From: Candidatus Woesearchaeota archaeon
GTDB taxonomy: Archaea > Nanobdellota > Nanobdellia > Woesearchaeales > JAWBMQ01
Direction: 5' to 3'
Assembly: GCA_038825875.1 (NCBI GenBank)
Contig: JAWBOS010000004.1
Location: 1 to 61,664, forward strand
Length of the DNA stretch: 61,664 nucleotides
The position numbers and the translations under genes were made by a program. Under the pieces are notes generated by a model. That model saw only the letters and a list, made by a program, of their open reading frames with translations, was not told the DNA's origin and ran no database searches. This document shows positions 4,246 to 61,664 of the stretch, piece by piece; the first letter of the stretch is position 1; each line of letters begins with the position of its first letter.

Positions 4246-4375
4246 GCGGGGGTGGCCGAGCTTGGTCAAAGGCGCTAGACTCAAGATATTTGAGTGCTGA
4301 TCAATGATGCAGCAATTCCACTATGAGGAATCTAGTCCCATAGTGGGTTCGTGGGTTCAAATCCCTCCCCCCGCA
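4246..4375 (+). tRNA. tRNA-Leu (anticodon CAA) with a ~44-nt intron after position 37
   Basis: Acceptor GCGGGGG/CCCCCGC, anticodon stem CTAGA (4275-4279)/TCTAG (4331-4335), loop CTCAAG..A interrupted by 4286-4329. Long variable arm CCCA-TAG-TGGG, T-loop TTCAAAT with one U-U mismatch in the T-stem. Confidence 0.88.
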
Positions 4376-48656: not shown

Positions 48657-50522
48657 ATGAAATATATGAATTTTTCAAGAATTTTAATTTTATGCATGTG
48701 TATTTTTTTATTTTTAGAAACAGGTCATTCTTTCATAGTTTATGATTTTCCGGACAGGCTGGTAATAAATTATACCATTTCATTGAAAATCTCGGGAGAA
48801 AAAGGAAAGATTACTCTTTCAACTAATAAGATCCCAGTTTCACAGTATCATCAAGTAGTTCAATCCAAATTGCCGTCAGAGTTTGAGTATACATTTAAAG
48901 AAAAGGGCGTGATTAGAGATGAATTTTCTACAATTATTACTCTTTACATGACGCCATCTCAGATCAAGGAAAAAATCCCTTATCAAAGAGAGAATACTAC
49001 TCTTTTACGAGAGATTATATGCTATGACGGTTACTGTGATGAGGCATATAAGCTCTTACGTGCATTGGTAAGTGAGTATCTTTCAGATGATCTCTTTAAA
49101 ACAGTTTGCTATATTAATCATTTTGTAAACAAGTTCATAACATATGACATCTCATTCGTAAATGATCAGCAACCAAGACTAAGCAATATTCTGACTTTTA
49201 AAAGAGGTGTTTGTGTTCATTATGCATATTTTCTTCATGAGATTCTGAATTCAATAGGTATTAAAAATCAAATTGTTTATGGTTTTGCAAAAAACAGTGC
49301 TAATTCTACAGCATGGGAACCACATGCCTGGATTAAGTTAAATTTATCCAATAAAGTACTTTTTTTTGATCCTACATTTGATATATGTGGTTATTTAACT
49401 CCATATCACTTATATCTCTCAAATAATTCCTTAATTACTTCCATGTCATATTTTGGTTTTAGTAAAGATGTAGAATTTAGTGATGAAATTAAGATTACAG
49501 AAATAGAAACAAGTCAAACATATATGCCTAGTATATTTTTTGATTTTGAATTTTTTGAGGATGAAATTTATCATAATGAATCCGCATATTTAACTGTAAC
49601 AGTAAAAAACAATGAACCTTTTTATATATTCTCAAATTTTAAATTAGTTTCAGCTGATGAAGTTACAATATTACCAGATGAATTCTTTTTTGTTTTAGAG
49701 CCATTTGAAGAGAAAAACATAACAGTGATTTTAAAACATTCTTTAAAGGATGTGCATTTTGATTATGTTGTTCCAGTTGTTTTGTACAGTTCTTGGTCTC
49801 AAAGTGTAACAAAAAACTTTAAAATAGTTAATAGAAAATCTCATCAAAGAGAAGAGAAAATAAATCCAAGGCCAGATTTACCATCTGTGCAAGAGGATTT
49901 TGAAATAGAATGTTTTCTGTATCCAATGTATTATTCAAATACTTCAAAAATCAAAATAATTTATAGAAATCAAACATTTTGCCTATTTAGGAGCAAGGGA
50001 AAGCCATTCATAGAAACGTTAAATGTGAGTGTTGCATCTTCAGACAATTTTGAGACACATTCTATTCCATTGATCCTTTCAAAAACATATCCTGAAGAAG
50101 TTTACTTTGATGAAATCACAAGATTAGGTATAAACAACATTATTCTTAACATTGCCAATAAGTCTGTTAATTTTACAGTAGTAAAGGAACTTCTAAATAT
50201 ATCCTATTATGAGACTGATGATAAATTTGTTTTTTATGATCCTTTGAAATATAGAAAAGAAATAAAAATAAAGGTCGGAAATAAATTAATCTACAAAAAC
50301 ACCACAGATGATGCTTTTAATATAACAATAGATAAGAAATATATTTCAGACATTCTCAAACTAACCTATTCTCAAAATGTATCAATAAACATAACAGTTG
50401 TTTACGATACTTTTGCATATATTTTTAATGAAAATATTTCAATAAATGTATCTTTTTGGCAAAGCATAAAAAATATATTTAAAATAATCTTAGAAAATAT
50501 AATCAATTGGTTTTATGAATAG
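48657..50522 (+). CDS. secreted transglutaminase-like cysteine protease-fold protein with long beta-rich C-terminal region
   Basis: Signal-like N-terminus; Cys-His-Asp triad context RGVCVHYAYF .. EPHAWIK .. FFDPT. Confidence 0.75.
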   Translation: MKYMNFSRILILCMCIFLFLETGHSFIVYDFPDRLVINYTISLKISGEKGKITLSTNKIPVSQYHQVVQSKLPSEFEYTFKEKGVIRDEFSTIITLYMTPSQIKEKIPYQRENTTLLREIICYDGYCDEAYKLLRALVSEYLSDDLFKTVCYINHFVNKFITYDISFVNDQQPRLSNILTFKRGVCVHYAYFLHEILNSIGIKNQIVYGFAKNSANSTAWEPHAWIKLNLSNKVLFFDPTFDICGYLTPYHLYLSNNSLITSMSYFGFSKDVEFSDEIKITEIETSQTYMPSIFFDFEFFEDEIYHNESAYLTVTVKNNEPFYIFSNFKLVSADEVTILPDEFFFVLEPFEEKNITVILKHSLKDVHFDYVVPVVLYSSWSQSVTKNFKIVNRKSHQREEKINPRPDLPSVQEDFEIECFLYPMYYSNTSKIKIIYRNQTFCLFRSKGKPFIETLNVSVASSDNFETHSIPLILSKTYPEEVYFDEITRLGINNIILNIANKSVNFTVVKELLNISYYETDDKFVFYDPLKYRKEIKIKVGNKLIYKNTTDDAFNITIDKKYISDILKLTYSQNVSINITVVYDTFAYIFNENISINVSFWQSIKNIFKIILENIINWFYE

Positions 50523-51265: not shown

Positions 51266-52333
51266 ATGCTAAATTTTTATACAATTTTGGTGAGAATTGT
51301 GGCAAAAAAAATCAAAAAAGAAAAGCAAAAAGATACATTAGATGAATCTTTGCAAGCATCTGAACAGTCGATGTCTCCTGAAACAAACTATCAGAAGATT
51401 CCAGTTCCGCCAGAGGTTCTTCAGATTCTTGTTCAAAAAAATAATCAAAAAGATCGATTAAAAAATGCAATAATTGTTATAATTATTCTCTCCTTTTTTT
51501 CTTCAATTTTGATTTCTCAACTAGATTTTAAAATGGGAAATGTAGCTATTGTTAAAATATATGATACTATTTCATATGATAATCAAAATTTTGAATTGGA
51601 AAGCGTACTTTCTTTTTTAGATTCTCTCAAGTATAATAAGCGAATTAAAGCAATAGTATTGGATATAAATTCTCCAGGAGGTAGTGCAGTAGCTACTCAT
51701 CATCTTGTTAAAAAAATACAACAGTTAAAGAACGAAAGAAACCTTACGGTATATGCCCTTATTCGAGAATATGGTACTTCTGGAGCATATTGGATTGCAT
51801 CTGTGGCAGATAGAATATATGCAGATGAGTTAAGTCTAGTTGGTAGCATTGGAGTGCTTTCGTCTTTTGTTACAATTCAAAAATTCTTGGAAAGGTATAA
51901 TATAACTTATGAGAGAATCGTTGGAGGAAAATATAAGGATTTAGGATCAATTTTCAAGGATTTGAATGAGGAAGAACGTCAATTATTGTTGTCAAAAATT
52001 ACAAAGGTTCATGATTTCTTTATTTTTTCCGTGGCACAAAAAAGAAATATTCCTGAAGAAAAAATGATAGAACTTGCAACAGGAGAATTTTTTATAGGTT
52101 TAGAGGGAAAAGAGTTAGGTTTGATCGATGAATTTGGAACTCTCGATGATCTAATAAAGAGAATTGAGATTGAGAAAAACATAACAGTGATTCCTTTGGA
52201 GTATAAAGCAAAAAAATCAATCTGGCAGAGAATGTTGGGTTTTTTTGAACAAGCAGGCTTTTCTTTTGGAAAGGGATTTATAAGAGGTATTACTTTTAAA
52301 ACAGATGAGAAGTCTACAGTTCAACTTATTTAG
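51266..52333 (+). CDS. sppA: signal peptide peptidase SppA (S49 family, 36K type)
   Basis: VLDINSPGGSAVA, GTSGAYWIA, GSIGV. Confidence 0.85.
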   Translation: MLNFYTILVRIVAKKIKKEKQKDTLDESLQASEQSMSPETNYQKIPVPPEVLQILVQKNNQKDRLKNAIIVIIILSFFSSILISQLDFKMGNVAIVKIYDTISYDNQNFELESVLSFLDSLKYNKRIKAIVLDINSPGGSAVATHHLVKKIQQLKNERNLTVYALIREYGTSGAYWIASVADRIYADELSLVGSIGVLSSFVTIQKFLERYNITYERIVGGKYKDLGSIFKDLNEEERQLLLSKITKVHDFFIFSVAQKRNIPEEKMIELATGEFFIGLEGKELGLIDEFGTLDDLIKRIEIEKNITVIPLEYKAKKSIWQRMLGFFEQAGFSFGKGFIRGITFKTDEKSTVQLI

Positions 52334-54288: not shown

Positions 54289-55737
54289 TCAGTAAAAGAT
54301 ATTGTCATATCCATATATGTGATAGTAGGTTACAAGATAATTTAGTGATAGGCCGTAGGTAATTCCTTTCATTAGGTAAGTTATTAATTCAATCCAATAT
54401 CGAATTGGTTTTCTCTTTATTGTTTTAGTTAGTCGAGGTAAAAATGTAAGAAGGTATGCATATATCTGAAAAAAGTCAATTTCCCAAGCCGAGAGATCAT
54501 TTGATTTTAGAATTGCTTTGAAAGTTATATTATCTGCTTTATTTAACCTATTCAGAACCATCTTAGATCCTGTTTTTTCAATAATCTTTACACTTTCATT
54601 AGTTAAAGGTTTAAATATAAAGAAAGCACTCCTTTCAGAATTTATTTTTTTAGCTAATTTTATTGTTTTCAGTATGCTTTTTTTGGTTTCGCCTGGTACT
54701 CCTAAAATATAATAGGATGTAGATTTCATTCTGTACTTTTTTAGAAGAGTTGATACTTCTTCAATTTTTTCATCACTTAATCCCTTTCTTAATATTTTGT
54801 TTCTAATTTCTTCATCACCATGTTCAAAACCAATTCTTAGCATATTGCATCCTGCTTCTTTAAGTAGTTTTATCTTTTTTTCATTTAGATTGTCAGCTCT
54901 TGAAAACATAGAATATTTGTGCTTATTTATGTTAGCAATTTTTTTGTAATGTTCACAGAACTCTATAATCCAATTTTCTTCTAAAGTTGGGATTTGATCA
55001 AATACTTGAATTAATCTTAAACCTCTATTTTCATATTTTTTCCATTGATATGCAAGTTCTTCAGCAAATCGCTTAGGAGACATCTTTCGATAATATCTTT
55101 TGGGATCAACTGCATTTGCAAATTCTCTTGCTTCACAAAAAGAACAGTTGTAGATGCAACCTCTACTTCCAATAAAGTATAACATACCCAAAAAATAAAA
55201 GTATTTGTCCAAATCTTCCCAAAGATCCCAGTCAAGATATGGCAAATCGTCTAGATTCTCATAAAAATAACCAGCGTTGTGAATTAAAGTTCCATCCTCC
55301 TCATAGTACCATAAACCTCTTATATTTCTAAGTTCTTTCTTTTTTTCTAATTTATTTAAAAATTCGACAATTGTTTCGTCGGCATCACCTACAAAAAGAT
55401 AATCAAAGAGGGAATTTCTGATAATCTGAGGATTTGTTGTAGCATAATATCCTCCGATTATTATTTTGATATTAGGATTAAGTTTCTTAATTTCTTCAGA
55501 TATTTTTATAATGTATTTAAAATAAAGAGAATTGGTAGAAAAACCAATAATATTTGGTTTGAATTCATGAATGTGTTTTTTTAATTTTTCTCTCCAAGTT
55601 CTTTTGTGAAAAGTAAAATCTAAGATTCTTGCAAGATGGTGACTCTTTTTATTTATTATTGTTGCTAAAGTGGTTATTGCAATATCTAGTGCACTATAAT
55701 CTCCTCCCAAAGTTGGATTTATAAATGTTATTCTCAT
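54289..55737 (-). CDS. cobalamin-binding-domain (class B) radical SAM enzyme
   Basis: N-terminal Rossmann-like domain (IIGFST..IIIGGYYAT) followed by GSRGCIYNCSFCEA (CX3CX2C). Confidence 0.82.
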   Translation of the reverse strand: MRITFINPTLGGDYSALDIAITTLATIINKKSHHLARILDFTFHKRTWREKLKKHIHEFKPNIIGFSTNSLYFKYIIKISEEIKKLNPNIKIIIGGYYATTNPQIIRNSLFDYLFVGDADETIVEFLNKLEKKKELRNIRGLWYYEEDGTLIHNAGYFYENLDDLPYLDWDLWEDLDKYFYFLGMLYFIGSRGCIYNCSFCEAREFANAVDPKRYYRKMSPKRFAEELAYQWKKYENRGLRLIQVFDQIPTLEENWIIEFCEHYKKIANINKHKYSMFSRADNLNEKKIKLLKEAGCNMLRIGFEHGDEEIRNKILRKGLSDEKIEEVSTLLKKYRMKSTSYYILGVPGETKKSILKTIKLAKKINSERSAFFIFKPLTNESVKIIEKTGSKMVLNRLNKADNITFKAILKSNDLSAWEIDFFQIYAYLLTFLPRLTKTIKRKPIRYWIELITYLMKGITYGLSLNYLVTYYHIYGYDNIFY

Positions 55738-55843
55738 TTTTGTATTTTTTTAATATTAATCATTATTTAATAAATTTTGCTAAATATAAGAAGGATTTGC
55801 GAGAATAAAAAAAAATTTAAACAGAGCTAATTTTTTTTTGATA

Positions 55844-56764
55844 ATGAAAATTTTTATGATTTTTACTGGTCAGCCATGTGAGATTGATTGTATTTATTGT
55901 AAAAGGAATTACTATCATTATCAAAATAATTTTAAAAGTAAATCACCAGAGGATGTTTTTAATGAAGTTTTGGAAATTATTAAAAATAACAAAGAAGACA
56001 ATGGTGATTTATTTTTTCACCTTACTGGAGTTGGTGAACCTCTTATGTTGTCAAATATTCGAGAAATATGTCAAATTATGCATGAAAATAAAATTAGTTT
56101 TCTTATAGAAACTAACGGAATTAAATTAAAAGATGAAAATTTTTTAGGTGAATTAGTTCGGCTAGGATTAAAAGGAATTATTTTAACAATTTGCTCCATA
56201 ATTGAAGAAGAATATCGTATAATTACACAGTCAAATTATTTTGAAGATGTTCTAATTGCGATAGAAAACATTGAAAAATTTCATATTCCATTAGAGCTTT
56301 CAATTCCTATCTTAAAGCAAAATCTTTTTACATTTCACTTGATTCCTATTTTTTTAAAGAAGTACTATAGAGATTTGAATCTTCAGAAAGTTAATCTTTC
56401 TTTGGTTCGAATAAATTCGCCAACACACATGTTTAAAGAGTGTAGTTTCAGAATTTCAGATTACTCCGAGTTTATAGAGGATAGAATATTATATTTGAAT
56501 GATTTAGGATTTGTGATTGATTTTTCAACCTCTGCAGGTGTTTTTCCATTTTGCTTTTTCAAAAGACTGACAAAAAAATTTAAGTTATATAACAAGTCGT
56601 ATATTTTTGATGGAATGAGACAAAAGACAGTTTACTGTTTAAATTGTTTTTTTAACTTCTCTTGTCCAGGACCATCAAGCACATATCTAGAGCTTTATGG
56701 TGATGAAGAATTTAAGGAATTATACTTCAGTGAAAACAGTGTGTATAATTCAAAAATTTTATAA
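55844..56764 (+). CDS. radical SAM enzyme with a C-terminal 4-Cys auxiliary-cluster domain (paralog 1)
   Basis: GQPCEIDCIYC (CX3CX2C) at the extreme N-terminus, GVGEPL, and C-terminal FPFC..x27..CLNCFFNFSCPG. Confidence 0.8.
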   Translation: MKIFMIFTGQPCEIDCIYCKRNYYHYQNNFKSKSPEDVFNEVLEIIKNNKEDNGDLFFHLTGVGEPLMLSNIREICQIMHENKISFLIETNGIKLKDENFLGELVRLGLKGIILTICSIIEEEYRIITQSNYFEDVLIAIENIEKFHIPLELSIPILKQNLFTFHLIPIFLKKYYRDLNLQKVNLSLVRINSPTHMFKECSFRISDYSEFIEDRILYLNDLGFVIDFSTSAGVFPFCFFKRLTKKFKLYNKSYIFDGMRQKTVYCLNCFFNFSCPGPSSTYLELYGDEEFKELYFSENSVYNSKIL

Positions 56765-56797
56765 ATAGATAAAAACTTCTTTAATGCGATTTTTAGT

Positions 56798-57376
56798 ATG
56801 AATAAATCTATTTTTAAAACAATTCCAAGAGAAGAATTTGAAAAAAGTGGCAGTTGGATAATTAAGGAGAATGAAGATTCAGTTTATATTCTTTTGAATG
56901 CGAAGTTATTTGATAAAAAGGTAATTTTTGCTACCTTATACAATATGCAGCAGTTTGCATATACTCTCTTAGATTTTGACGGAAAAGATTATATTATAAG
57001 ATTAATTCGCACTAATAATCAAAAAAATTTAGAAGAACTAGCATTAGATTTTACTCAGAGATTAATAAACTTTGAGCATTATTTTCTTCAATTGGAAGAT
57101 GTTAAAGATATAAAGGAAGAAATCTTTAAAGAAGTCTATAGTCAATTGCAGAAAGGATCCGTTCCTGAAGTAGATTATGACATAAATGAGCAAGGTGTTG
57201 AAGAGAATTCAGAGTTTTGTGGTTGTGAGGAAGAAACATTAGAAGTTCAAGACGAAGGAATTAAGCTTCAACCAGAGAATATTGATTTTCAAGAATTTGA
57301 AGACTTATTAAAGCCGTGGGAAGAAAGATTCAAAGAGGATTTGAAAGATAAAAGAGATCCTTATCTTGAAAAATAA
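56798..57376 (+). CDS. hypothetical acidic protein inside the radical-SAM operon (possibly HxsD-like; candidate substrate or chaperone)
   Basis: 192 aa with no enzyme motif. The N-terminal ~110 aa look globular. The C-terminal 70 aa are very acidic, with a CGC at ..NSEFCGCEEE... Confidence 0.55.
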   Translation: MNKSIFKTIPREEFEKSGSWIIKENEDSVYILLNAKLFDKKVIFATLYNMQQFAYTLLDFDGKDYIIRLIRTNNQKNLEELALDFTQRLINFEHYFLQLEDVKDIKEEIFKEVYSQLQKGSVPEVDYDINEQGVEENSEFCGCEEETLEVQDEGIKLQPENIDFQEFEDLLKPWEERFKEDLKDKRDPYLEK

Positions 57377-57389
57377 TATAATTCTGAAA

Positions 57390-57779
57390 ATGAAAATTTT
57401 GTTTGACAATGAAAAAGGAGAAATTAATTTTATTGACTTTCCTCTATTTCTTTACTCTAGAAAATCTTTTTTCAAACTTCTTAATTTGATAGTAAATGAT
57501 TTTGAGATTAAATTTGAGAGGTTTAATTATTTGGATGAACGTTGGTTTGAAGAAACTTTCAGAGATAATTTGTTATTGGAAAAATTTTGGAATCAAGATA
57601 CGTCTTACTTTGGTAGAAATGCAAATTTCTTAGGTACTATTGATTTTAAATTAAAAAGTACTACTCAAATTTCAGAGGAAGAGGTTAAAGAATTCGTAAA
57701 TTATTTCTTTGACCTATTGATTTCATATGAAGCGATTGATTTTCTAGAACAAGAAAAATATTTTAACAGTAGAGCATGA
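57390..57779 (+). CDS. hypothetical small protein inside the radical-SAM operon
   Basis: 129 aa from the ATG at 57390 (the track TTG is at 57366). ATGA-coupled to the following SPASM enzyme. Confidence 0.5.
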   Translation: MKILFDNEKGEINFIDFPLFLYSRKSFFKLLNLIVNDFEIKFERFNYLDERWFEETFRDNLLLEKFWNQDTSYFGRNANFLGTIDFKLKSTTQISEEEVKEFVNYFFDLLISYEAIDFLEQEKYFNSRA

Positions 57780-59185
57780 ATAACCTTTTTGAGATAAAAA
57801 AATATGAAATTCCTTTTTACAGGTTTAAAAAATTTGGTAATAAGTATTTAGTTACTACTGATTCAGGAGCTTGGATTTTTCTAACTGAAGATGAGTTCTA
57901 TTTATTCTATAATCATTCACTCTCATCTGAGTTATACAGAAAATTAGAAGAAAAAAATATAATAATTACACCAGAAAATAGGAAAAACATTGTAATGAAG
58001 TATCTTAATTTTTATTGGCCAAGGTATTTAGGAGCTTCTTTATTGATAGTAGTGCCTACATTAAGATGTAATTTTACATGCAAGTATTGTTATTCTTATA
58101 GGAAGAATGAAAACGAGATGGGATATGATATGACTTTGGAAGTAGCTTGCAAGATTTTAGATTTGATTTTTCAAACACCAGCTCCACACATAGTTTTAGA
58201 ATTTACAGGCGGGGAACCATTATTAAATTTTGAGATAATTAAGTACATGATTGAAGAATGTGAAAAAATAAAAAAGTATCATAATAAATCAGTTTCATAT
58301 GCAATTGTAACAAATGGTTATTATTTAGATGAAGAAAAATTTAATTTTCTAAGTAAATATGGTTGTGGAATTTGTATAAGTTTCGATGGACCCAAAGAAT
58401 TACATGATTTTCATAGAAAAATTACCAACAATCCTAAGCAAAGTAGTTATGATCTGGTTGTTGAGAAAATAAAGTGGTTGTTCAAAGAAAAGTATCCATT
58501 TGTATTTGCGATTCCTGTTATAACAAAAAAGAGTTTTGCTTATTGGAAAGAGATTATTGATGAATACGTTAAATTGGGAATATTAACATATAGATTTAAA
58601 TTTATGAGCTTTTTTGGATTTGCGTCAAATTACAAGATTTGGACTGAGTTAGGAGCTACACCTGAAGAGTTCGTTGAGTTTTGGAAAAAATCTGTTGATT
58701 ACTTGATAGAATTAAATAAGAAAGGAATTAAAGCAAAGGAGAATATTGCGGGATATATATTAGCAAAACTTTTTAGGACTAGACCAGCGGGATTTGCAGA
58801 ATTAGAGATTCCTTGCGGTGCTACAATAGGTCAATTACTCTTTAATTATGAGGGATCTATTTATCCTTGTGATGAAGCTAGAATTTTTCCTAATTTTAGG
58901 ATTGGGTCTGTATTTACTCATAAATATGAAGATTTGATTTTACATCCAACGACTACATCTTTAATAAATGCTTCTTCAATGGTGGAATCTTGCTATTCTT
59001 GTGTATATTATCCTTATTGTGGTAGTTGTCCCGTGGAGGATTATAATAGGTATAAAACCATGATAGTAAATATACCTTCTTCATATAGATGTAGAGTTTA
59101 TAAAGGAATGTTTGATTATATTTTCCAAAAATTAAGTGAAGATGAAGAAGTTATGAAGATTTTTCAAAATTGGGTGGGGGTGTAG
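57776..59185 (+). CDS. radical SAM/SPASM-domain maturase (anSME/HxsB-like architecture)
   Basis: LRCNFTCKYCYS (CX3CX2C), FTGGEPLL, and a SPASM tail: CGATIGQLLFNYEGSIYPC .. CYSCVYYPYCGSC .. C. Confidence 0.88.
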   Translation: MNNLFEIKKYEIPFYRFKKFGNKYLVTTDSGAWIFLTEDEFYLFYNHSLSSELYRKLEEKNIIITPENRKNIVMKYLNFYWPRYLGASLLIVVPTLRCNFTCKYCYSYRKNENEMGYDMTLEVACKILDLIFQTPAPHIVLEFTGGEPLLNFEIIKYMIEECEKIKKYHNKSVSYAIVTNGYYLDEEKFNFLSKYGCGICISFDGPKELHDFHRKITNNPKQSSYDLVVEKIKWLFKEKYPFVFAIPVITKKSFAYWKEIIDEYVKLGILTYRFKFMSFFGFASNYKIWTELGATPEEFVEFWKKSVDYLIELNKKGIKAKENIAGYILAKLFRTRPAGFAELEIPCGATIGQLLFNYEGSIYPCDEARIFPNFRIGSVFTHKYEDLILHPTTTSLINASSMVESCYSCVYYPYCGSCPVEDYNRYKTMIVNIPSSYRCRVYKGMFDYIFQKLSEDEEVMKIFQNWVGV

Positions 59186-59186
59186 G

Positions 59187-60137
59187 ATGATCTTAATGGA
59201 TTCATACTTTAAGATTGGTATTATTTCAAAGTGTAATCTTAATTGTAGGTTCTGTTCGACAGCAGGCAAATCAGATGAGCTTTCATTAGAAGAGATAAAG
59301 GAGTTAATTTTAAATGCTATAAAACAGAGAAAAGTTCCTATGATTACGGGTGGAGAACCATTATTACATCCTAACTTTTTTGATATTCTTTCCTTTATGA
59401 AAGAAAATCATATTCGTGGTGTGGTGGAGTCAAATGGTCTTTTACTGCTAGATTCCAATATTTATGATAGATTAAAACCTTTCTTAAAGGATTTTATTAC
59501 TTTTGATTTTTTGATCAATGGTTTTAATTCTAATTTACATGATTATCTTAGTGGGAAAGAAGGAAGTTTTTTTGGACTTTTAAAAATATTGGAGCGATTT
59601 CAGTCAGACTCTATTCCTTTCAATCTTCACGTAGTTATCAATAAAGTTAATTATAGATATCTTCCTAATATTGCAAGTTTAGCTTTAAGGTTTAATGCTC
59701 AACAGATAAGATTTATCTTTATACTTCCATTAGGTAATGCAGATAAGTATTTTGAGGAACTCATTCCATTTTTAAGTCTCGTTAGGCCATACTTATATTC
59801 GGTCTTAAAAAAATTATTGTTTGAGGATATTAGAGTATATTTTGAAAACATCCCTTATTGCGTTATTCCTTATTTTGAAAAATATATTCAATCCTTTGAT
59901 TTGACATTTAAGACAAAAAAAGATGAAAAATTTTGTTCTATTTGTGCTTTTGATTTGATTTGTGATGGTTTTTATGAGTGGTATCTTTTGAGGAAAGCAG
60001 ATGATGAATTTGTTTCGATTTCTCCATATAGAGAAAAACTCACTACAAAGCTAAGATTAACTCAAGATGCACATCCATTTTTGGATAATTATTTTCTAGT
60101 CCAATCATCTTTTGATCCAAATGTTAGGCCAATCTAA
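59187..60137 (+). CDS. radical SAM enzyme with a C-terminal 4-Cys domain (paralog 2)
   Basis: SKCNLNCRFCST (CX3CX2C), ITGGEPLL, and C-terminal IPYC..x24..CSICAFDLICDG. Confidence 0.85.
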   Translation: MILMDSYFKIGIISKCNLNCRFCSTAGKSDELSLEEIKELILNAIKQRKVPMITGGEPLLHPNFFDILSFMKENHIRGVVESNGLLLLDSNIYDRLKPFLKDFITFDFLINGFNSNLHDYLSGKEGSFFGLLKILERFQSDSIPFNLHVVINKVNYRYLPNIASLALRFNAQQIRFIFILPLGNADKYFEELIPFLSLVRPYLYSVLKKLLFEDIRVYFENIPYCVIPYFEKYIQSFDLTFKTKKDEKFCSICAFDLICDGFYEWYLLRKADDEFVSISPYREKLTTKLRLTQDAHPFLDNYFLVQSSFDPNVRPI

Positions 60138-60144
60138 TTAAATC

Positions 60145-61194
60145 TTAAATCTTTATTGTTTCAAACTCAATTTTTTCAGCAAATTCTTCAAAGTCAAAAA
60201 AATTCCTTAATTCTTTTATGTAATATGGAATTGCTAGAATACTTGTTGTAAGATACATTTCCTTACCTATTTCTAAGAGGATATACCTTATTTTGTAACA
60301 TAAATCAAGGAACATTCTAAATTTTTCATCATCCTTTAAGTTACTTATAAAAAATTCATTTAATTCGTCTAGCATATTATTACTTAGTTTGAAGATTGCA
60401 GTATCACAAAGTTCAAATTCTAAGGGGATTTTTATTATTTTTTCTATATCTTGGAATTTTAAAGTTTTGTGAGCAAATCTTGTTTTTGTAACTTTTTTAA
60501 TTCTCTCGTTTTCAATATTTGGTAATGAAGAAAGAAGGTAAATTATTTTCGGATTATAGAGGACTAATTGCTTTATAAGAAGTTCGTCAGCAAAATTAAT
60601 AAAAATTTTTGAATCTTCTATTTCCTTATTGAGTTCTAACAGTTTAATTAAATGATAAATTAATTCTTCTTTTTTTTCACTCTTAAAAATTTTTATTTTA
60701 ATGGTAATATCCTTTATGATTGTAAAGAAATCTTTAAAGACAGCGAATACTTGATCTTCATATTTTTGAATAGCACCAGGACATACATTTCTTACTTTAC
60801 AGAATTTACAATCTTCAAAATATAATAGGTCTAAAAGATCCTTTTCCCTAATAAATCCTTTTAGTGCAAAGTATTGCAAATCTAAACTGTATTTTGGAAA
60901 ATCTTGCATATAGCATAAAGGGATATTAAGCGTATAAAATTCTTTTTTATTTTCTATAAGATTTCTAATTAATAAAATAAGATATTTTTCAATTTTAAAG
61001 AGTTCTCTCTGTGAATGATATATGATAATCGTTTTGTCAGATTTCACGGTTTCATTAACAATATTTTTTATTAAATCAAAAGATAGATCATCAGATAAGT
61101 TTATGATTAGAAAATCATTGTAATTAATCACTCTTTGAGAGCCTTCATAAGTTTCCACAAATTCTTTAAGTTCTTTGTATTTTAAGGGATTCAT
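60145..61194 (-). CDS. radical-SAM-related protein lacking the CX3CX2C motif but keeping the C-terminal-type 4-Cys domain (paralog 3), plus a ~200-aa extension
   Basis: No CX3CX2C anywhere. IPLC..x34..CKFCKVRNVCPG sits mid-protein. ATG at 61194 (the track TTG is at 61203). Confidence 0.6.
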   Translation of the reverse strand: MNPLKYKELKEFVETYEGSQRVINYNDFLIINLSDDLSFDLIKNIVNETVKSDKTIIIYHSQRELFKIEKYLILLIRNLIENKKEFYTLNIPLCYMQDFPKYSLDLQYFALKGFIREKDLLDLLYFEDCKFCKVRNVCPGAIQKYEDQVFAVFKDFFTIIKDITIKIKIFKSEKKEELIYHLIKLLELNKEIEDSKIFINFADELLIKQLVLYNPKIIYLLSSLPNIENERIKKVTKTRFAHKTLKFQDIEKIIKIPLEFELCDTAIFKLSNNMLDELNEFFISNLKDDEKFRMFLDLCYKIRYILLEIGKEMYLTTSILAIPYYIKELRNFFDFEEFAEKIEFETIKI

Positions 61195-61199
61195 TTTTA

Positions 61200-61664
61200 T
61201 CAATCCTTTGGAATTAATGGAAATTCCTCATAATTATTCAGTATTTCCTCTTTAGATGTGATAGGTTTTCCAGGTACAGGGATAAATTCATCAGATCCGA
61301 ATTTTAGTGGATATTCTTTCCATGGGCCTTCGCAAATAAATCGGAATCTACAAAATCCACATTGTTCGAACAAAGTCTTTCCCTCAGTAGTTCTTACTTT
61401 TTTGAAATCCCAAATATATCGTTCTTTTTCTTTTACTATTGTTTTTTCAGGGATATATAGTTCAGAAACAAATCTTTCATAACCTTTCATTAAGCAATAT
61501 GGAACCGCCTCGTTCATTACATTAATGTTATGAATTGCAGCATATTTAGTTCCTTTTTTCATATAAACTATTGCTTCACTCATAGTTGGCATCATAGATT
61601 CGATATTGACCCATGCATTTCCAGCAGCATGAACAAAAGCATATTGGAACTGATCTACTTTTAG
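61200..61664 (-). CDS. C-terminal part of a further radical-SAM-type protein (paralog 4), truncated by the window edge
   Basis: The frame stays open upstream of the track Met to base 61664 (LKVDQFQYAFVHAAGNAWVNIES-MMPT..). The C-terminus has VPYC..x44..CGFCRFRFICEG. Confidence 0.65.
   Translation of the reverse strand, partial: LKVDQFQYAFVHAAGNAWVNIESMMPTMSEAIVYMKKGTKYAAIHNINVMNEAVPYCLMKGYERFVSELYIPEKTIVKEKERYIWDFKKVRTTEGKTLFEQCGFCRFRFICEGPWKEYPLKFGSDEFIPVPGKPITSKEEILNNYEEFPLIPKD

What the first reader, a model, noticed from the sequence alone, without database searches (positions are those of the whole stretch)
54289..61664. Dense island of six radical-SAM-type genes with no recognisable pathway context; best candidate for an undescribed system
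Six of eight genes within 7.4 kb are radical-SAM type.

Cluster motifs readable in the translations:
- GSRGCIYNCSFCEA behind a cobalamin-type Rossmann domain (54289..55737, minus strand, divergent from the operon).
- GQPCEIDCIYC (55844..56764).
- LRCNFTCKYCYS plus a full SPASM tail (57776..59185).
- SKCNLNCRFCST (59187..60137).
- Two convergent minus-strand genes (60145..61194 and 61200..>61664) carrying the same C-terminal CxxCx5C domain.

The plus-strand genes look translationally coupled: stop 57376 with the next ATG at 57390, an ATGA overlap at 57776-57779, and a 1-nt gap at 59185/59187.

I see no transporter, peptidase, short precursor gene or partner of a known cofactor pathway. The flanks are housekeeping (tRNA-Glu, top6B) and base composition matches the rest of the window. 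In a genome that otherwise looks minimal, this many Fe-S/SAM enzymes at one locus suggests a multi-step radical modification of an unknown substrate (protein/peptide, lipid or cofactor). The island continues beyond the window.
Basis: partly seen in the sequence, partly recalled or inferred. Interest (0 to 1): 0.85.

Follow-up and report, generated by a model that had tools for sequence, protein, structure and literature searches.

The report
Archaeal His-Xaa-Ser radical-SAM maturation island
The gene cluster is real, but it is a divergent archaeal version of the already named His-Xaa-Ser (Hxs) protein-maturation system with extra radical-SAM paralogs, and the gene for the repeat protein it should modify is not on this contig.

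Summary
The radical-SAM count is five, not six. Four genes carry CxxxCxxC. One is cut by the contig end but is orthologous to a full radical-SAM gene. One (60145-61203) has no radical-SAM core.

The plus-strand operon is an Hxs cassette:
- 57776-59185 is HxsB (TIGR03978, 389.9 bits; cut-off 370).
- 56798-57376 is HxsD.
- 57390-57779 is a divergent HxsD-like protein.
- 59187-60137 and 55844-56764 are HxsC-family radical-SAM enzymes.
- The truncated 61200->61664 gene is HxsC4-like.

I fetched 83 HxsB loci from DPANN archaea and CPR bacteria. Of these, 73 have HxsD plus HxsD-like upstream of HxsB. 59 encode a precursor with a conserved leader and (His-x-Ser)n repeats (NCBIfam HxsA3/HxsA4-like). 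Dense radical-SAM islands around HxsB are common.

No such precursor is in the window, and the window is the whole contig. In the closest long relative the precursor lies 9 kb beyond HxsB.

So this is not an undescribed system. It is an uncharacterised archaeal variant of a known kind. HXS was shown to be an anti-phage system in E. coli in 2026. Interest is moderate.

The parts
54289..55737 (-). P1: cobalamin-type (class B) radical-SAM enzyme, transcribed divergently from the Hxs operon. Link to the Hxs genes is by synteny only.
   Evidence: Pfam B12-binding 45.3 bits and Radical_SAM 78.5 bits. The best NCBIfam hits (HpnJ, BchE, ApyD) are all far below their cut-offs. Orthologues at 59-76% identity hold the same divergent position next to HxsD in L002, L003 and L084. 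Relatives at 44-50% identity sit in other radical-SAM islands without HxsB or HxsD nearby.
55738..55843 (.). 106-nt AT-rich divergent intergenic region between P1 and the plus-strand operon. Presumed promoter region; not tested.
   Evidence: Sequence read. No ORF fits in this space.
55844..56764 (+). P2: HxsC-family radical-SAM enzyme and first gene of the plus-strand operon. CxxxCxxC lies at residues 12-19; the C-terminal motif is CLNCFFNFSCPG.
   Evidence: Pfam Radical_SAM 50.7 bits. Weak full-length NCBIfam matches to HxsC (35.5 bits) and HxsC4 (35.4 bits). The top hit, W_rSAM_matur, scores 60 bits against a cut-off of 380. An orthologue (263 bits) lies just after HxsC in L002, and that orthologue's best NCBIfam hit is HxsC4.
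56798..57376 (+). P3: HxsD. It has an N-terminal HxsD domain, an acidic linker and a conserved C-terminal PWEE[KR][FY] motif.
   Evidence: TIGR03976 28.7 bits, below the cut-off of 50. Precomputed Pfam PF27806 (HxsD) is assigned to this very protein. All 41 members of the family alignment A3 hit TIGR03976, best E-value 5.6e-17. An HxsD-type ORF lies upstream of HxsB in 81 of 83 loci.
57390..57779 (+). P4: divergent, longer member of the HxsD-like (HxsD_rel) small-protein family. Its stop overlaps the HxsB start (ATGA).
   Evidence: No direct library hit. It aligns in position and sequence with the small ORF found between HxsD and HxsB in other loci. 32 of 36 members of that alignment hit NF038315 HxsD_rel. 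A profile of the family scores P4 at 35.5 bits, though P4 is itself in that profile. hhalign of the HxsD family against the HxsD_rel family gives probability 97.5%.
57776..59185 (+). P5: HxsB, a radical-SAM/SPASM maturase with a CxxxCxxC cluster plus seven SPASM cysteines.
   Evidence: TIGR03978 389.9 bits, above the curated cut-off of 370, and full length. 811 homologues were found; the top ones are DPANN and many are already named HxsB. Identity to proteobacterial plasmid HxsB is 29-33% over 96-99% of the length. The family profile hits CteB (5wgg, 5e-44) and anSME (4k36, 3e-39).
59187..60137 (+). P6: HxsC-like radical-SAM enzyme, 1 nt downstream of HxsB. Its C-terminal 4-Cys motif includes CSICAFDLICDG.
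   Evidence: The best NCBIfam hit is HxsC (TIGR03977, 94.1 bits, residues 14-265 against model positions 33-291 of 292), below the cut-off of 267.9. It is 20% identical over 268 aa to Aeromonas HxsC, including the CxxCx5C motif. Orthologues follow HxsB directly in L001-L003.
60145..61203 (-). P7: not a radical-SAM enzyme. It carries an HxsC-type 4-Cys domain (C94, C129, C132, C138) followed by a shortened DUF362-like region. The likely start is the TTG at 61203, which overlaps the P8 stop.
   Evidence: No CxxxCxxC and no Pfam or NCBIfam hit. Residues 67-151 align to residues 203-296 of an HxsC4-like radical-SAM protein. Longer family members (L006, L055, P0122) carry DUF362 plus 2x[4Fe-4S] ferredoxin domains. 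Orthologues follow the P8 orthologue in L002 and L003. The AlphaFold2 model was unusable, mean pLDDT 41.
61200..61664 (-). P8: C-terminal 154 aa of an HxsC4-like radical-SAM enzyme. About 173 N-terminal residues, including the cluster motif, lie beyond the contig end.
   Evidence: 63% identity to residues 174-325 of the 329-aa L002 protein, which carries CNNWCRFC. That orthologue's best NCBIfam hit is HxsC4 (NF038332, 159.7 bits; cut-off 500), followed by HxsC at 99 bits. P8-type genes follow HxsB directly in 14 of 83 loci.

Best explanation
**What it is.** The island is a DPANN-archaeal (Woesearchaeota-like) variant of the His-Xaa-Ser (Hxs) protein-maturation system.

**Gene roles (shown by sequence comparison)**
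- One coupled operon encodes an HxsC-family radical-SAM enzyme (P2), HxsD (P3), an HxsD-like paralogue (P4), the SPASM radical-SAM maturase HxsB (P5) and a second HxsC-like enzyme (P6).
- A convergent pair encodes a third, HxsC4-like enzyme (P8) and a protein made of the HxsC 4-Cys domain plus a DUF362 remnant (P7).
- A cobalamin-type radical-SAM enzyme (P1) is transcribed divergently.
- In related loci the substrate is a small secreted or membrane-anchored protein. It has a conserved basic leader (lPKIKKKIssFLxxEEGKISK), a hydrophobic signal-like segment and a run of His-x-Ser repeats.

**How it probably works (inferred by analogy with E. coli HXS, PMC13128918)**
- The small HxsD-type proteins act as adaptors. 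They present the precursor to the radical-SAM enzymes in the cytoplasm.
- Those enzymes install covalent modifications in the His-x-Ser repeats.
- The several HxsC paralogues and the B12 enzyme (probably a methylase) add further modifications or act at further sites.
- The product is then processed at its N-terminus and exported.
- I infer that the precursor gene of this genome lies off this contig.

**Biological role.** The role in an archaeon is not shown. Blocking of viral DNA entry, as in E. coli, is the leading guess.
For: **Identity of the core genes**
- HxsB scores above the curated cut-off.
- HxsD: Pfam PF27806 is assigned to this very protein, and 41 of 41 family members hit TIGR03976.
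- HxsD_rel: 32 of 36 family members hit NF038315, and hhalign links that family to HxsD at 97.5% probability.
- P6's best hit is HxsC, and the orthologues of P2 and P8 hit HxsC4 best. P2 itself hits HxsC and HxsC4 only weakly, and P8's 154-aa fragment only through its last ~30 residues. All share the HxsC-type CxxCx5C motif with a canonical Aeromonas HxsC.

**Operon structure**
- The gene overlaps and short gaps were verified on the sequence.

**Recurrence of the same architecture**
- Of 83 HxsB loci, 81 have an HxsD-type ORF upstream and 73 have two. 59 carry an HxsA-type leader ORF, 40 of them directly after HxsB.
- Those precursors hit NCBIfam HxsA4 and HxsA3; one scores above the cut-off.
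- Radical-SAM-dense islands are the rule. In loci of at least 15 kb the median is 4 radical-SAM ORFs, and 13 of 43 have 6 or more.

**Closest relatives**
- L002, the closest long relative, has the same gene families plus an HxS/HxT-repeat precursor 9 kb beyond HxsB.
- P8-type genes directly follow HxsB in 14 loci, which ties P8 and its coupled partner P7 to Hxs.

**Enzyme class and published function**
- HxsB is related to the peptide- and protein-modifying enzymes CteB and anSME.
- In E. coli, HxsB, HxsC and HxsD are all needed to mature HxsA, and HxsC binds HxsD.
Against: - No HxsA-type gene is in the 61.6-kb contig. A leader profile found nothing at E<10. No translated 30-residue window in any frame contains three H-x-[STG] motifs.
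- L001, a close relative with 10-kb flanks, also lacks a precursor, and its HxsC-like gene has lost CxxxCxxC.
- HxsC and HxsD score below NCBI's equivalog cut-offs.
- P4 has no direct library hit.
- Relatives of P1 and P8, and DUF362 proteins carrying the same 4-Cys domain as P7, also occur together in islands without HxsB or HxsD within 10 kb. Their link to Hxs may therefore be only neighbourhood.
- No chemistry or phenotype is known for any archaeal or CPR version.
- Archaea have neither the peptidoglycan nor the periplasm on which the E. coli mechanism depends.
Confidence: 0.65

Rival explanations
1. The island is a composite. A minimal Hxs cassette (P3-P6, perhaps with P2) sits beside an independent radical-SAM module (P1, P8, P7). 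That second module acts on a different substrate, for example a cell-surface glycan, a lipid or another protein. The two are neighbours only because such accessory genes pile up in variable islands.
For: - P1 relatives at 44-50% identity lie in islands with other B12 radical-SAM genes but with no HxsB or HxsD within the fetched flanks (L085-L090, L093); two of them (L085, L093) also carry P8-like genes.
- L093 additionally carries a DUF362/ferredoxin protein and a PMT_2 glycosyltransferase.
- P1, P7 and P8 are on the other strand from the Hxs operon.
- Gene order differs between the window and L002.
- L001 has only the four-gene cassette.
Against: - All four P1 orthologues at 59% identity or more are divergent neighbours of HxsD.
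- P8-type HxsC4-like genes are the gene immediately after HxsB in 14 loci.
- In L002 the P8-P7 pair lies between HxsB and the HxS-repeat precursor.
- Several of the HxsB-free loci are short contigs, so absence there is weak evidence.
Confidence: 0.2
2. The cassette is an orphan or a decaying remnant. The genome has lost its HxS-repeat precursor and the enzymes are on their way to pseudogenisation, or have been recruited to nothing in particular.
For: - No precursor is on the contig.
- The relative L001 has no precursor within 10 kb either side, and its HxsC-like gene lacks the cluster motif.
- P7 is a shortened derivative of longer DUF362/ferredoxin fusions.
- P4 is too diverged to hit the HxsD_rel model.
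Against: - Every complete ORF of the island (seven of the eight) is intact and tightly coupled.
- All four complete radical-SAM genes keep CxxxCxxC, and HxsB keeps all seven SPASM cysteines.
- The precursor can lie 9 kb away, as in L002.
- The contig ends inside the island.
- Small DPANN genomes seldom keep 7 kb of useless intact genes; this point is general knowledge, not tested here.
Confidence: 0.08
3. In this sub-clade the enzymes act on a substrate without HxS repeats. One candidate is the conserved acidic tail and PWEE[KR][FY] motif of HxsD itself. Others are the enlarged HxsD-like protein P4 or an unlinked protein.
For: - In the window clade (window, L001-L003), HxsC rather than HxsA follows HxsB.
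- P4 is 30-60 residues longer than typical HxsD_rel proteins.
- The HxsD family has a strikingly conserved C-terminal PWEEK motif after a disordered acidic linker.
Against: - L002, a member of the same sub-clade, does carry an HxS/HxT-repeat precursor at the end of its island.
- The PWEEK motif is also conserved in the many loci that do have HxsA. It is therefore more likely a docking motif.
- There is no direct evidence for any alternative substrate.
Confidence: 0.05
4. This is the first reader's reading: an entirely undescribed multi-step radical-SAM system with no relation to any known pathway.
For: - Three of the eight proteins (P1, P4, P7) have no informative library assignment.
- No experiment exists for any archaeal version.
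Against: - HxsB scores above the curated cut-off, and the neighbours are HxsD and HxsC-family proteins.
- Curated models exist for the variant components.
- Relatives are already annotated HxsB in public records.
Confidence: 0.02

Closest known systems
Canonical HXS / HxsABCD system of Pseudomonadota (Haft and Basu, as cited in PMC9062424; anti-phage function shown in E. coli by Li et al. 2026, PMC13128918). Example read here: Aeromonas salmonicida plasmid 4, hxsD-hxsB-hxsC-hxsA (L094).
   Same: - HxsD, then HxsB, then an HxsC-type enzyme, in that order and coupled.
- HxsB is a full-length SPASM radical-SAM enzyme that passes the same curated model.
- The HxsC-type enzymes share the C-terminal CxxCx5C motif.
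- In relatives, the substrate is a secreted protein with His-x-Ser repeats behind an N-terminal signal-like segment.
   Different: - HxsB is only 29-33% identical.
- HxsC-like proteins are about 20% identical. They are about 85 residues shorter, and the aligned region starts only near residue 113 of the 401-aa canonical HxsC.
- A second HxsD paralogue is present.
- HxsD carries an acidic tail with a PWEEK motif.
- There are three HxsC paralogues plus a 4-Cys/DUF362 protein and a B12 radical-SAM enzyme.
- No hxsA follows hxsC here.
- The ten relatives' precursors scanned hit no peptidoglycan-binding model, and most are 80-130 aa.
- The host is an archaeon without murein or a periplasm.
- The published survey put 99.7% of HXS systems in Pseudomonadota.
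NCBIfam variant Hxs components: HxsA3 (NF038309), HxsA4 (NF038313), HxsC4 (NF038332) and HxsD_rel (NF038315).
   Same: - Precursors in related DPANN and CPR loci hit HxsA4 and HxsA3 best; one (L067) scores 66 bits against a cut-off of 55.
- The small ORF family to which P4 belongs hits HxsD_rel in 32 of 36 members.
- P8 orthologues hit HxsC4 best, at about 160 bits.
   Different: - The HxsC4 hits are far below that model's cut-off of 500.
- Most HxsA hits are below their cut-offs.
- P4 itself does not hit HxsD_rel.
- I found no publication describing these variant families, so what their curators know about them is not visible to me.
SPASM-domain peptide and protein maturases with solved structures: CteB (5wgg, SCIFF thioether synthase) and anSME (4k36, anaerobic sulfatase-maturating enzyme).
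   Same: The HxsB family profile aligns to CteB over nearly its full length (query 40-426, chain 54-427, E = 5e-44). It also aligns to anSME (E = 3e-39). This fits an enzyme that abstracts hydrogen from a peptide or protein substrate and holds two auxiliary clusters.
   Different: They are different equivalog families. PapB, anSME and SCIFF models score 100-150 bits, against 390 bits for HxsB. The chemistry of HxsB is unknown.
Multi-radical-SAM RiPP clusters with class B (cobalamin) C-methyltransferases. Named from general knowledge, plus NCBIfam models ApyD (NF050148) and TIGR03975.
   Same: P1 has the B12-binding plus radical-SAM architecture. It shows moderate similarity to the RiPP enzymes ApyD (109.7 bits) and TIGR03975 (81 bits).
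   Different: All scores are far below the cut-offs. Hopanoid (HpnJ) and BchE models score as well or better. No substrate link has been shown.

Membership tests
His-Xaa-Ser (Hxs) system | HxsB: a radical-SAM/SPASM maturase that passes TIGR03978 (cut-off 370 bits) | tested here: met
   389.9 bits, residues 14-467 against model positions 3-466 of 466. CxxxCxxC and seven SPASM cysteines are present and conserved.
His-Xaa-Ser (Hxs) system | HxsC: a second radical-SAM enzyme next to HxsB (TIGR03977, cut-off 267.9 bits) | tested here: inconclusive
   P6 lies 1 nt after HxsB, and its best hit is HxsC over the near-full model, but at 94.1 bits, below the cut-off. It is 20% identical to Aeromonas HxsC, with the shared CxxCx5C motif. 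P8 orthologues hit HxsC4 best at about 160 bits against a cut-off of 500.
His-Xaa-Ser (Hxs) system | HxsD: a small protein upstream of HxsB (TIGR03976, cut-off 50 bits; Pfam PF27806) | tested here: inconclusive
   P3 scores 28.7 bits, below the cut-off. However, precomputed Pfam PF27806 is assigned to it. All 41 aligned family members hit TIGR03976, best E-value 5.6e-17. The position directly upstream of HxsB is conserved in 81 of 83 loci.
His-Xaa-Ser (Hxs) system | HxsA: a precursor or effector protein with His-Xaa-Ser repeats encoded in the cassette | tested here: not met
   None is found anywhere in the window. One is present in 59 of 83 related loci and in the closest long relative L002. 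The window is a whole contig that ends inside the island, so absence from the genome is not shown.
E. coli-type HXS anti-phage defence (PMC13128918) | Effector with a peptidoglycan-binding domain acting in the periplasm; protection against phage | not testable with these tools
   There is no effector gene here. The ten relatives' precursors scanned hit no peptidoglycan-binding model (NCBIfam only; no Pfam scan was run) and most are short. Phenotype cannot be computed. PADLOC-DB 2023 gave no system-level hit, only weak cross-hits between radical-SAM families.
Class B cobalamin-dependent radical-SAM enzymes | N-terminal B12-binding Rossmann domain plus a radical-SAM core with CxxxCxxC | tested here: met
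   For P1, PF02310 scores 45.3 bits (cut-off 32.1) and PF04055 scores 78.5 bits (cut-off 29.5). The motif CIYNCSFC is present.
   Tes does not appear among the listed hits of P1-P6 (for P1, P2, P5 and P6 only the best 25 families are shown). P8 and P2 orthologues score 43-58 bits.
Radical-SAM superfamily (for P7, 60145-61203) | CxxxCxxC cluster motif and a radical-SAM TIM-barrel core | tested here: not met
   No motif and no PF04055 hit. Only the C-terminal 4-Cys domain of HxsC-type enzymes is recognisable.

The most novel reading that the evidence does not exclude
Small-celled DPANN archaea and CPR bacteria widely carry an expanded Hxs lineage. Two HxsD-type adaptors, HxsB, up to seven HxsC paralogues and B12 radical-SAM enzymes would together turn a secreted His-x-Ser-repeat protein into a heavily and diversely modified surface product. 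Its chemistry and role would differ from the E. coli periplasmic DNA-entry block. Possible roles are an antiviral coat, a metal-binding factor or a host-attachment factor. The window would be one member of a sub-clade in which the precursor has moved away from HxsB.
Probability: 0.3. Interest if true: 0.7.

Novelty: new variant of a known kind. Interest (0 to 1): 0.45.

Why it matters
HXS has only just been given a function: a radical-SAM-matured effector that blocks phage DNA entry in E. coli. The paper that showed this reported the system as almost confined to Pseudomonadota.

The relatives gathered here show otherwise for the enzymatic core. HxsD, HxsB and HxS-repeat precursors are common in DPANN archaea and CPR bacteria. 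A pattern scan of species-representative genomes found at least 589 HxsB-encoding stretches. These are usually embedded in much larger sets of radical-SAM paralogues.

If these systems are functional, three things follow:
- They extend a new class of protein-modifying immunity, or some other surface function, to organisms with no peptidoglycan or periplasm.
- They offer a natural series of enzyme paralogues for working out the still unknown Hxs chemistry (+8 Da on SHRSS in E. coli).
- They would explain why radical-SAM genes take up so much of these small genomes.

The window itself is a weak test object, because its substrate gene is missing.

Tried and rejected
**Attempts that led nowhere**
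- Extending the contig. The window is the whole 61,664-base contig. An exact look-up of P7 found no record. An exact search of JGI metagenome contigs with the last 49 bases found nothing.
- Looking for a precursor in the window. Stop-to-stop segments with three or more H.S motifs: none. A leader profile built from 43 related precursors: no hit at E<10. No translated 30-residue window in any frame had three H.[STG] motifs; only 14 stretches with five His turned up, in antisense or out-of-frame translations or inside ordinary coding sequence, with no repeat.
- Structure of P7. AlphaFold2 with a two-sequence alignment gave pLDDT 41, which is unusable.
- Structure of HxsD (P3). The core had pLDDT of about 72 and beta-beta-alpha-beta-beta-alpha order. 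Foldseek against the PDB gave no match at E of 0.001 or better and TM-scores of about 0.3. Profile searches of the PDB with the HxsD family found nothing, and with the P7 family only chance-level matches (E about 0.45).
- Word-index protein searches for P7 and P3 returned only one relative each. The relatives in L002, L003, L006 and L055 had to be found through loci instead.
- A single-sequence locus search for P1 found nothing. A three-sequence alignment was needed.

**Ideas considered and rejected**
- PADLOC gave only generic radical-SAM cross-hits (pVip, PDC-M51A). I reject any viperin reading.
- P2, P6 and P8 as MoaA, tungsten-cofactor maturase or NirJ-type enzymes. All are far below their cut-offs, and the HxsC or HxsC4 alignments cover the full length.
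- The HxsA-type leader as a class III (pilin-like) signal, prompted by the Arc_PepC peptidase in L002. The leaders do not show the usual Lys/Arg-Gly/Ala cleavage motif. I leave this open rather than claim it.

Full report
**Setting**

The window is archaeal. It begins inside a large-subunit rRNA gene (1-1438) and carries an archaeal SRP RNA. G+C is about 29% throughout, and the island does not differ. The protein database records a longest contig of 61,664 bases for the window's own HxsB, so the window is a complete contig. The best HxsB relatives are from Woesearchaeota, Nanoarchaeota and Pacearchaeota MAGs.

**Checking the observation**

All eight ORFs are present, and the four quoted CxxxCxxC motifs are there. 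They are the only such motifs in any open (stop-to-stop) translated segment of 80 aa or more in the whole window, so the clustering is real. Pfam confirms B12-binding plus Radical_SAM for 54289-55737. It confirms Radical_SAM for 55844-56764, 57776-59185 and 59187-60137.

The coupling claims are exact:
- Stop at 57374-57376, next ATG at 57390.
- ATGA at 57776-57779.
- TAG at 59183-59185, next ATG at 59187.

Two corrections are needed.
- The gene at 60145-61203 has no cluster motif and no radical-SAM core. Only residues 67-151 resemble the C-terminal 4-Cys domain of an HxsC-type enzyme.
- The truncated gene at 61200->61664 can be called radical SAM only by orthology. It is 63% identical to residues 174-325 of a 329-aa protein in locus L002 that carries CNNWCRFC.

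The count is therefore five radical-SAM genes and one derivative, not six.

**What the genes are**

NCBIfam identifies 57776-59185 as HxsB, with 389.9 bits against a curated cut-off of 370. The genes around it belong to the same system.
- *P3 (56798-57376)* hits HxsD weakly at 28.7 bits. The precomputed Pfam family HxsD (PF27806) is assigned to it. All 41 members of an alignment of its positional homologues hit TIGR03976.
- *P4 (57390-57779)* has no direct hit. A conserved small ORF lies between HxsD and HxsB in nearly every related locus. P4 aligns with it, and 32 of 36 members of that family hit NCBIfam's 'HxsD-like protein' model. The two small-protein families are homologous to each other (hhalign probability 97.5%).
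- *P6 (59187-60137)* has HxsC as its best hit over nearly the whole model (94 bits, below the cut-off of 268). It shares the C-terminal CxxCx5C motif with a canonical Aeromonas HxsC.
- *P2 (55844-56764)* shows weaker full-length similarity to HxsC and HxsC4, and its L002 orthologue hits HxsC4 best.
- *P8 orthologues* hit HxsC4 best, at about 160 bits.
- *P7* belongs to a family whose longer members join the same 4-Cys domain to DUF362 and two ferredoxin-type clusters. The window's copy has lost most of that.
- *P1* is a class B cobalamin radical-SAM enzyme with no equivalog assignment.

**Related loci**

The best 80 are almost all DPANN or CPR MAGs. With three closer contigs this gives 83 loci. 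Their content is as follows.

| Feature | Loci |
|---|---|
| HxsD-type ORF just upstream of HxsB | 81 of 83 |
| Two HxsD-type ORFs upstream (HxsD plus HxsD-like) | 73 of 83 |
| ORF with HxsA-type leader | 59 of 83 |
| That ORF directly after HxsB | 40 of 83 |
| Six or more radical-SAM ORFs (loci of 15 kb or more; median 4) | 13 of 43 |

The leader ORFs share a conserved basic leader (lPKIKKKIssFLxxEEGKISK). A hydrophobic signal-like segment follows, and then runs of His-x-Ser. These precursors hit NCBIfam HxsA4 and HxsA3 best.

The usual order in these lineages is therefore HxsD, HxsD-like, HxsB, HxsA, with HxsC-type genes nearby.

**The window's own sub-clade**

The window belongs to a sub-clade (with L001-L003 and L084) in which an HxsC-like gene, not HxsA, follows HxsB.
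- In L003 the order B12 radical SAM | ... HxsD, P4, HxsB, HxsC | P7, P8 is the same as in the window.
- L002 carries the same families plus an Arc_PepC/A24 peptidase, two more radical-SAM genes and an HxS/HxT-repeat precursor. The precursor lies 9 kb beyond HxsB, and the contig breaks off inside its repeats.
- L001 has only the four-gene cassette. It has no precursor within 10 kb, and its HxsC-like gene has lost CxxxCxxC.

**The missing substrate**

The window contains no HxS-repeat ORF and nothing resembling the leader. The intergenic spaces within the island are 106, 33, 13, 1 and 7 nt, so no small gene is hidden there. Because the contig ends inside P8, the precursor may lie beyond it or elsewhere in the genome. 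This cannot be settled with the data I can reach.

**How it probably works**

In E. coli, HxsB, HxsC and HxsD are each required to mature HxsA. Maturation includes N-terminal processing and a +8 Da change within an SHRSS repeat. HxsC binds HxsD, and the product is exported and blocks phage DNA entry.

HxsB is related to CteB and anSME, enzymes that act on peptide or protein substrates. By analogy, I propose the following for the archaeal island:
- The two HxsD-type proteins present a leader-bearing HxS-repeat precursor to HxsB and to several HxsC paralogues.
- The B12 enzyme adds methyl groups.
- The P7 family supplies or once supplied Fe-S electron-transfer capacity.

Only the gene identities and the synteny are shown. 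The chemistry, the adaptor role, the involvement of P1, P2, P7 and P8, and the biological role are inferred.

**Rivals**

The strongest rival is that the island is a composite. P1 relatives at 44-50% identity lie in islands without HxsB or HxsD. Two of these islands (L085, L093) also carry P8-like genes, and L093 adds a DUF362 protein and a PMT_2 glycosyltransferase. Against this:
- All four P1 orthologues at 59% identity or more sit next to HxsD.
- P8-type genes directly follow HxsB in 14 loci.
- In L002 the P8-P7 pair lies between HxsB and the precursor.

An orphan or decaying cassette, and a non-HxS substrate, remain possible but are less likely.

**Novelty and verdict**

The kind is known. 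Haft and Basu named the system bioinformatically (cited in PMC9062424). It was characterised in 2026 (PMC13128918). NCBIfam holds models for variant components, and public records already call DPANN proteins HxsB.

Several things are not described in anything I could find:
- The archaeal and CPR architecture with two HxsD paralogues.
- The multiple HxsC paralogues, the B12 enzymes and the DUF362 fusions.
- The short leader-plus-repeat precursors.
- The breadth of this architecture, which contrasts with the reported 99.7% restriction of HXS to Pseudomonadota.

I rate the finding as a new variant of a known kind and of moderate interest. It is limited by the absence of the substrate gene from this contig.

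Noticed in passing
window 56798-57376 (residues ~165-180) and alignment A3 of related loci: HxsD proteins of DPANN and CPR loci carry a conserved C-terminal motif (dPeGIaiPWEEKyG; LLKPWEERF in the window). It follows a disordered acidic linker. The 96-aa Aeromonas HxsD lacks this tail. It could be a docking motif or a modification site.
   Followed up: partly
L001 11428-12357: The HxsC-like gene of this close relative (HxsB 59% identical) has no CxxxCxxC motif, and no precursor lies within 10 kb. This may be a decaying cassette.
   Followed up: partly
L002 20725-21084; L003 9859-9930; window 61200-61664: Three related contigs end inside the island. L002 ends within the HxS/HxT repeat-coding DNA. 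L003 and the window both end within the P8-type gene. Repeats and paralogous radical-SAM genes probably break short-read assemblies here, which would hide precursors systematically.
   Followed up: no
L002 14934-16079: An archaeal A24 / Arc_PepC (prepilin-type) peptidase homologue sits inside the radical-SAM island, between the Hxs cassette and the P8-P7 pair. It is a candidate for N-terminal processing of the precursor. No counterpart is in the window's island.
   Followed up: partly
L093 3077-4708 and 9082-10614; L006 8503-10188: DUF362 plus ferredoxin proteins carry the same 4-Cys domain as P7, placed at either end of the protein. PMT_2 glycosyltransferase-like membrane proteins accompany P1-like B12 radical-SAM genes in islands without HxsB.
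   Followed up: partly
L014, L045, L046, L060: Some loci encode two HxsA-type precursors with near-identical leaders and different repeat regions.
   Followed up: no
window 4246-4375: Rfam finds a tRNA match spanning 130 nt (42.6 bits) that ARAGORN did not call. This is probably an intron-containing archaeal tRNA.
   Followed up: no
window 51266-52333: An S49-family (SppA-like signal-peptide peptidase) gene lies 2 kb upstream of the island, beyond tRNA-Glu and top6B.
   Followed up: partly
window 48657-50522: A 621-aa secreted or membrane protein with a transglutaminase-like core domain.
   Followed up: no
record titles of L007-L010, L016, L048, L050, L060, L075, L081: Many MAGs whose loci look like DPANN or CPR Hxs islands are labelled 'uncultured Methanosarcinales', 'Saccharibacteria', 'Desulfobacteraceae', 'Cytophagia' or 'Pseudomonadales' in their TPA records. 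These labels may be unreliable and should not be used for distribution claims.
   Followed up: no
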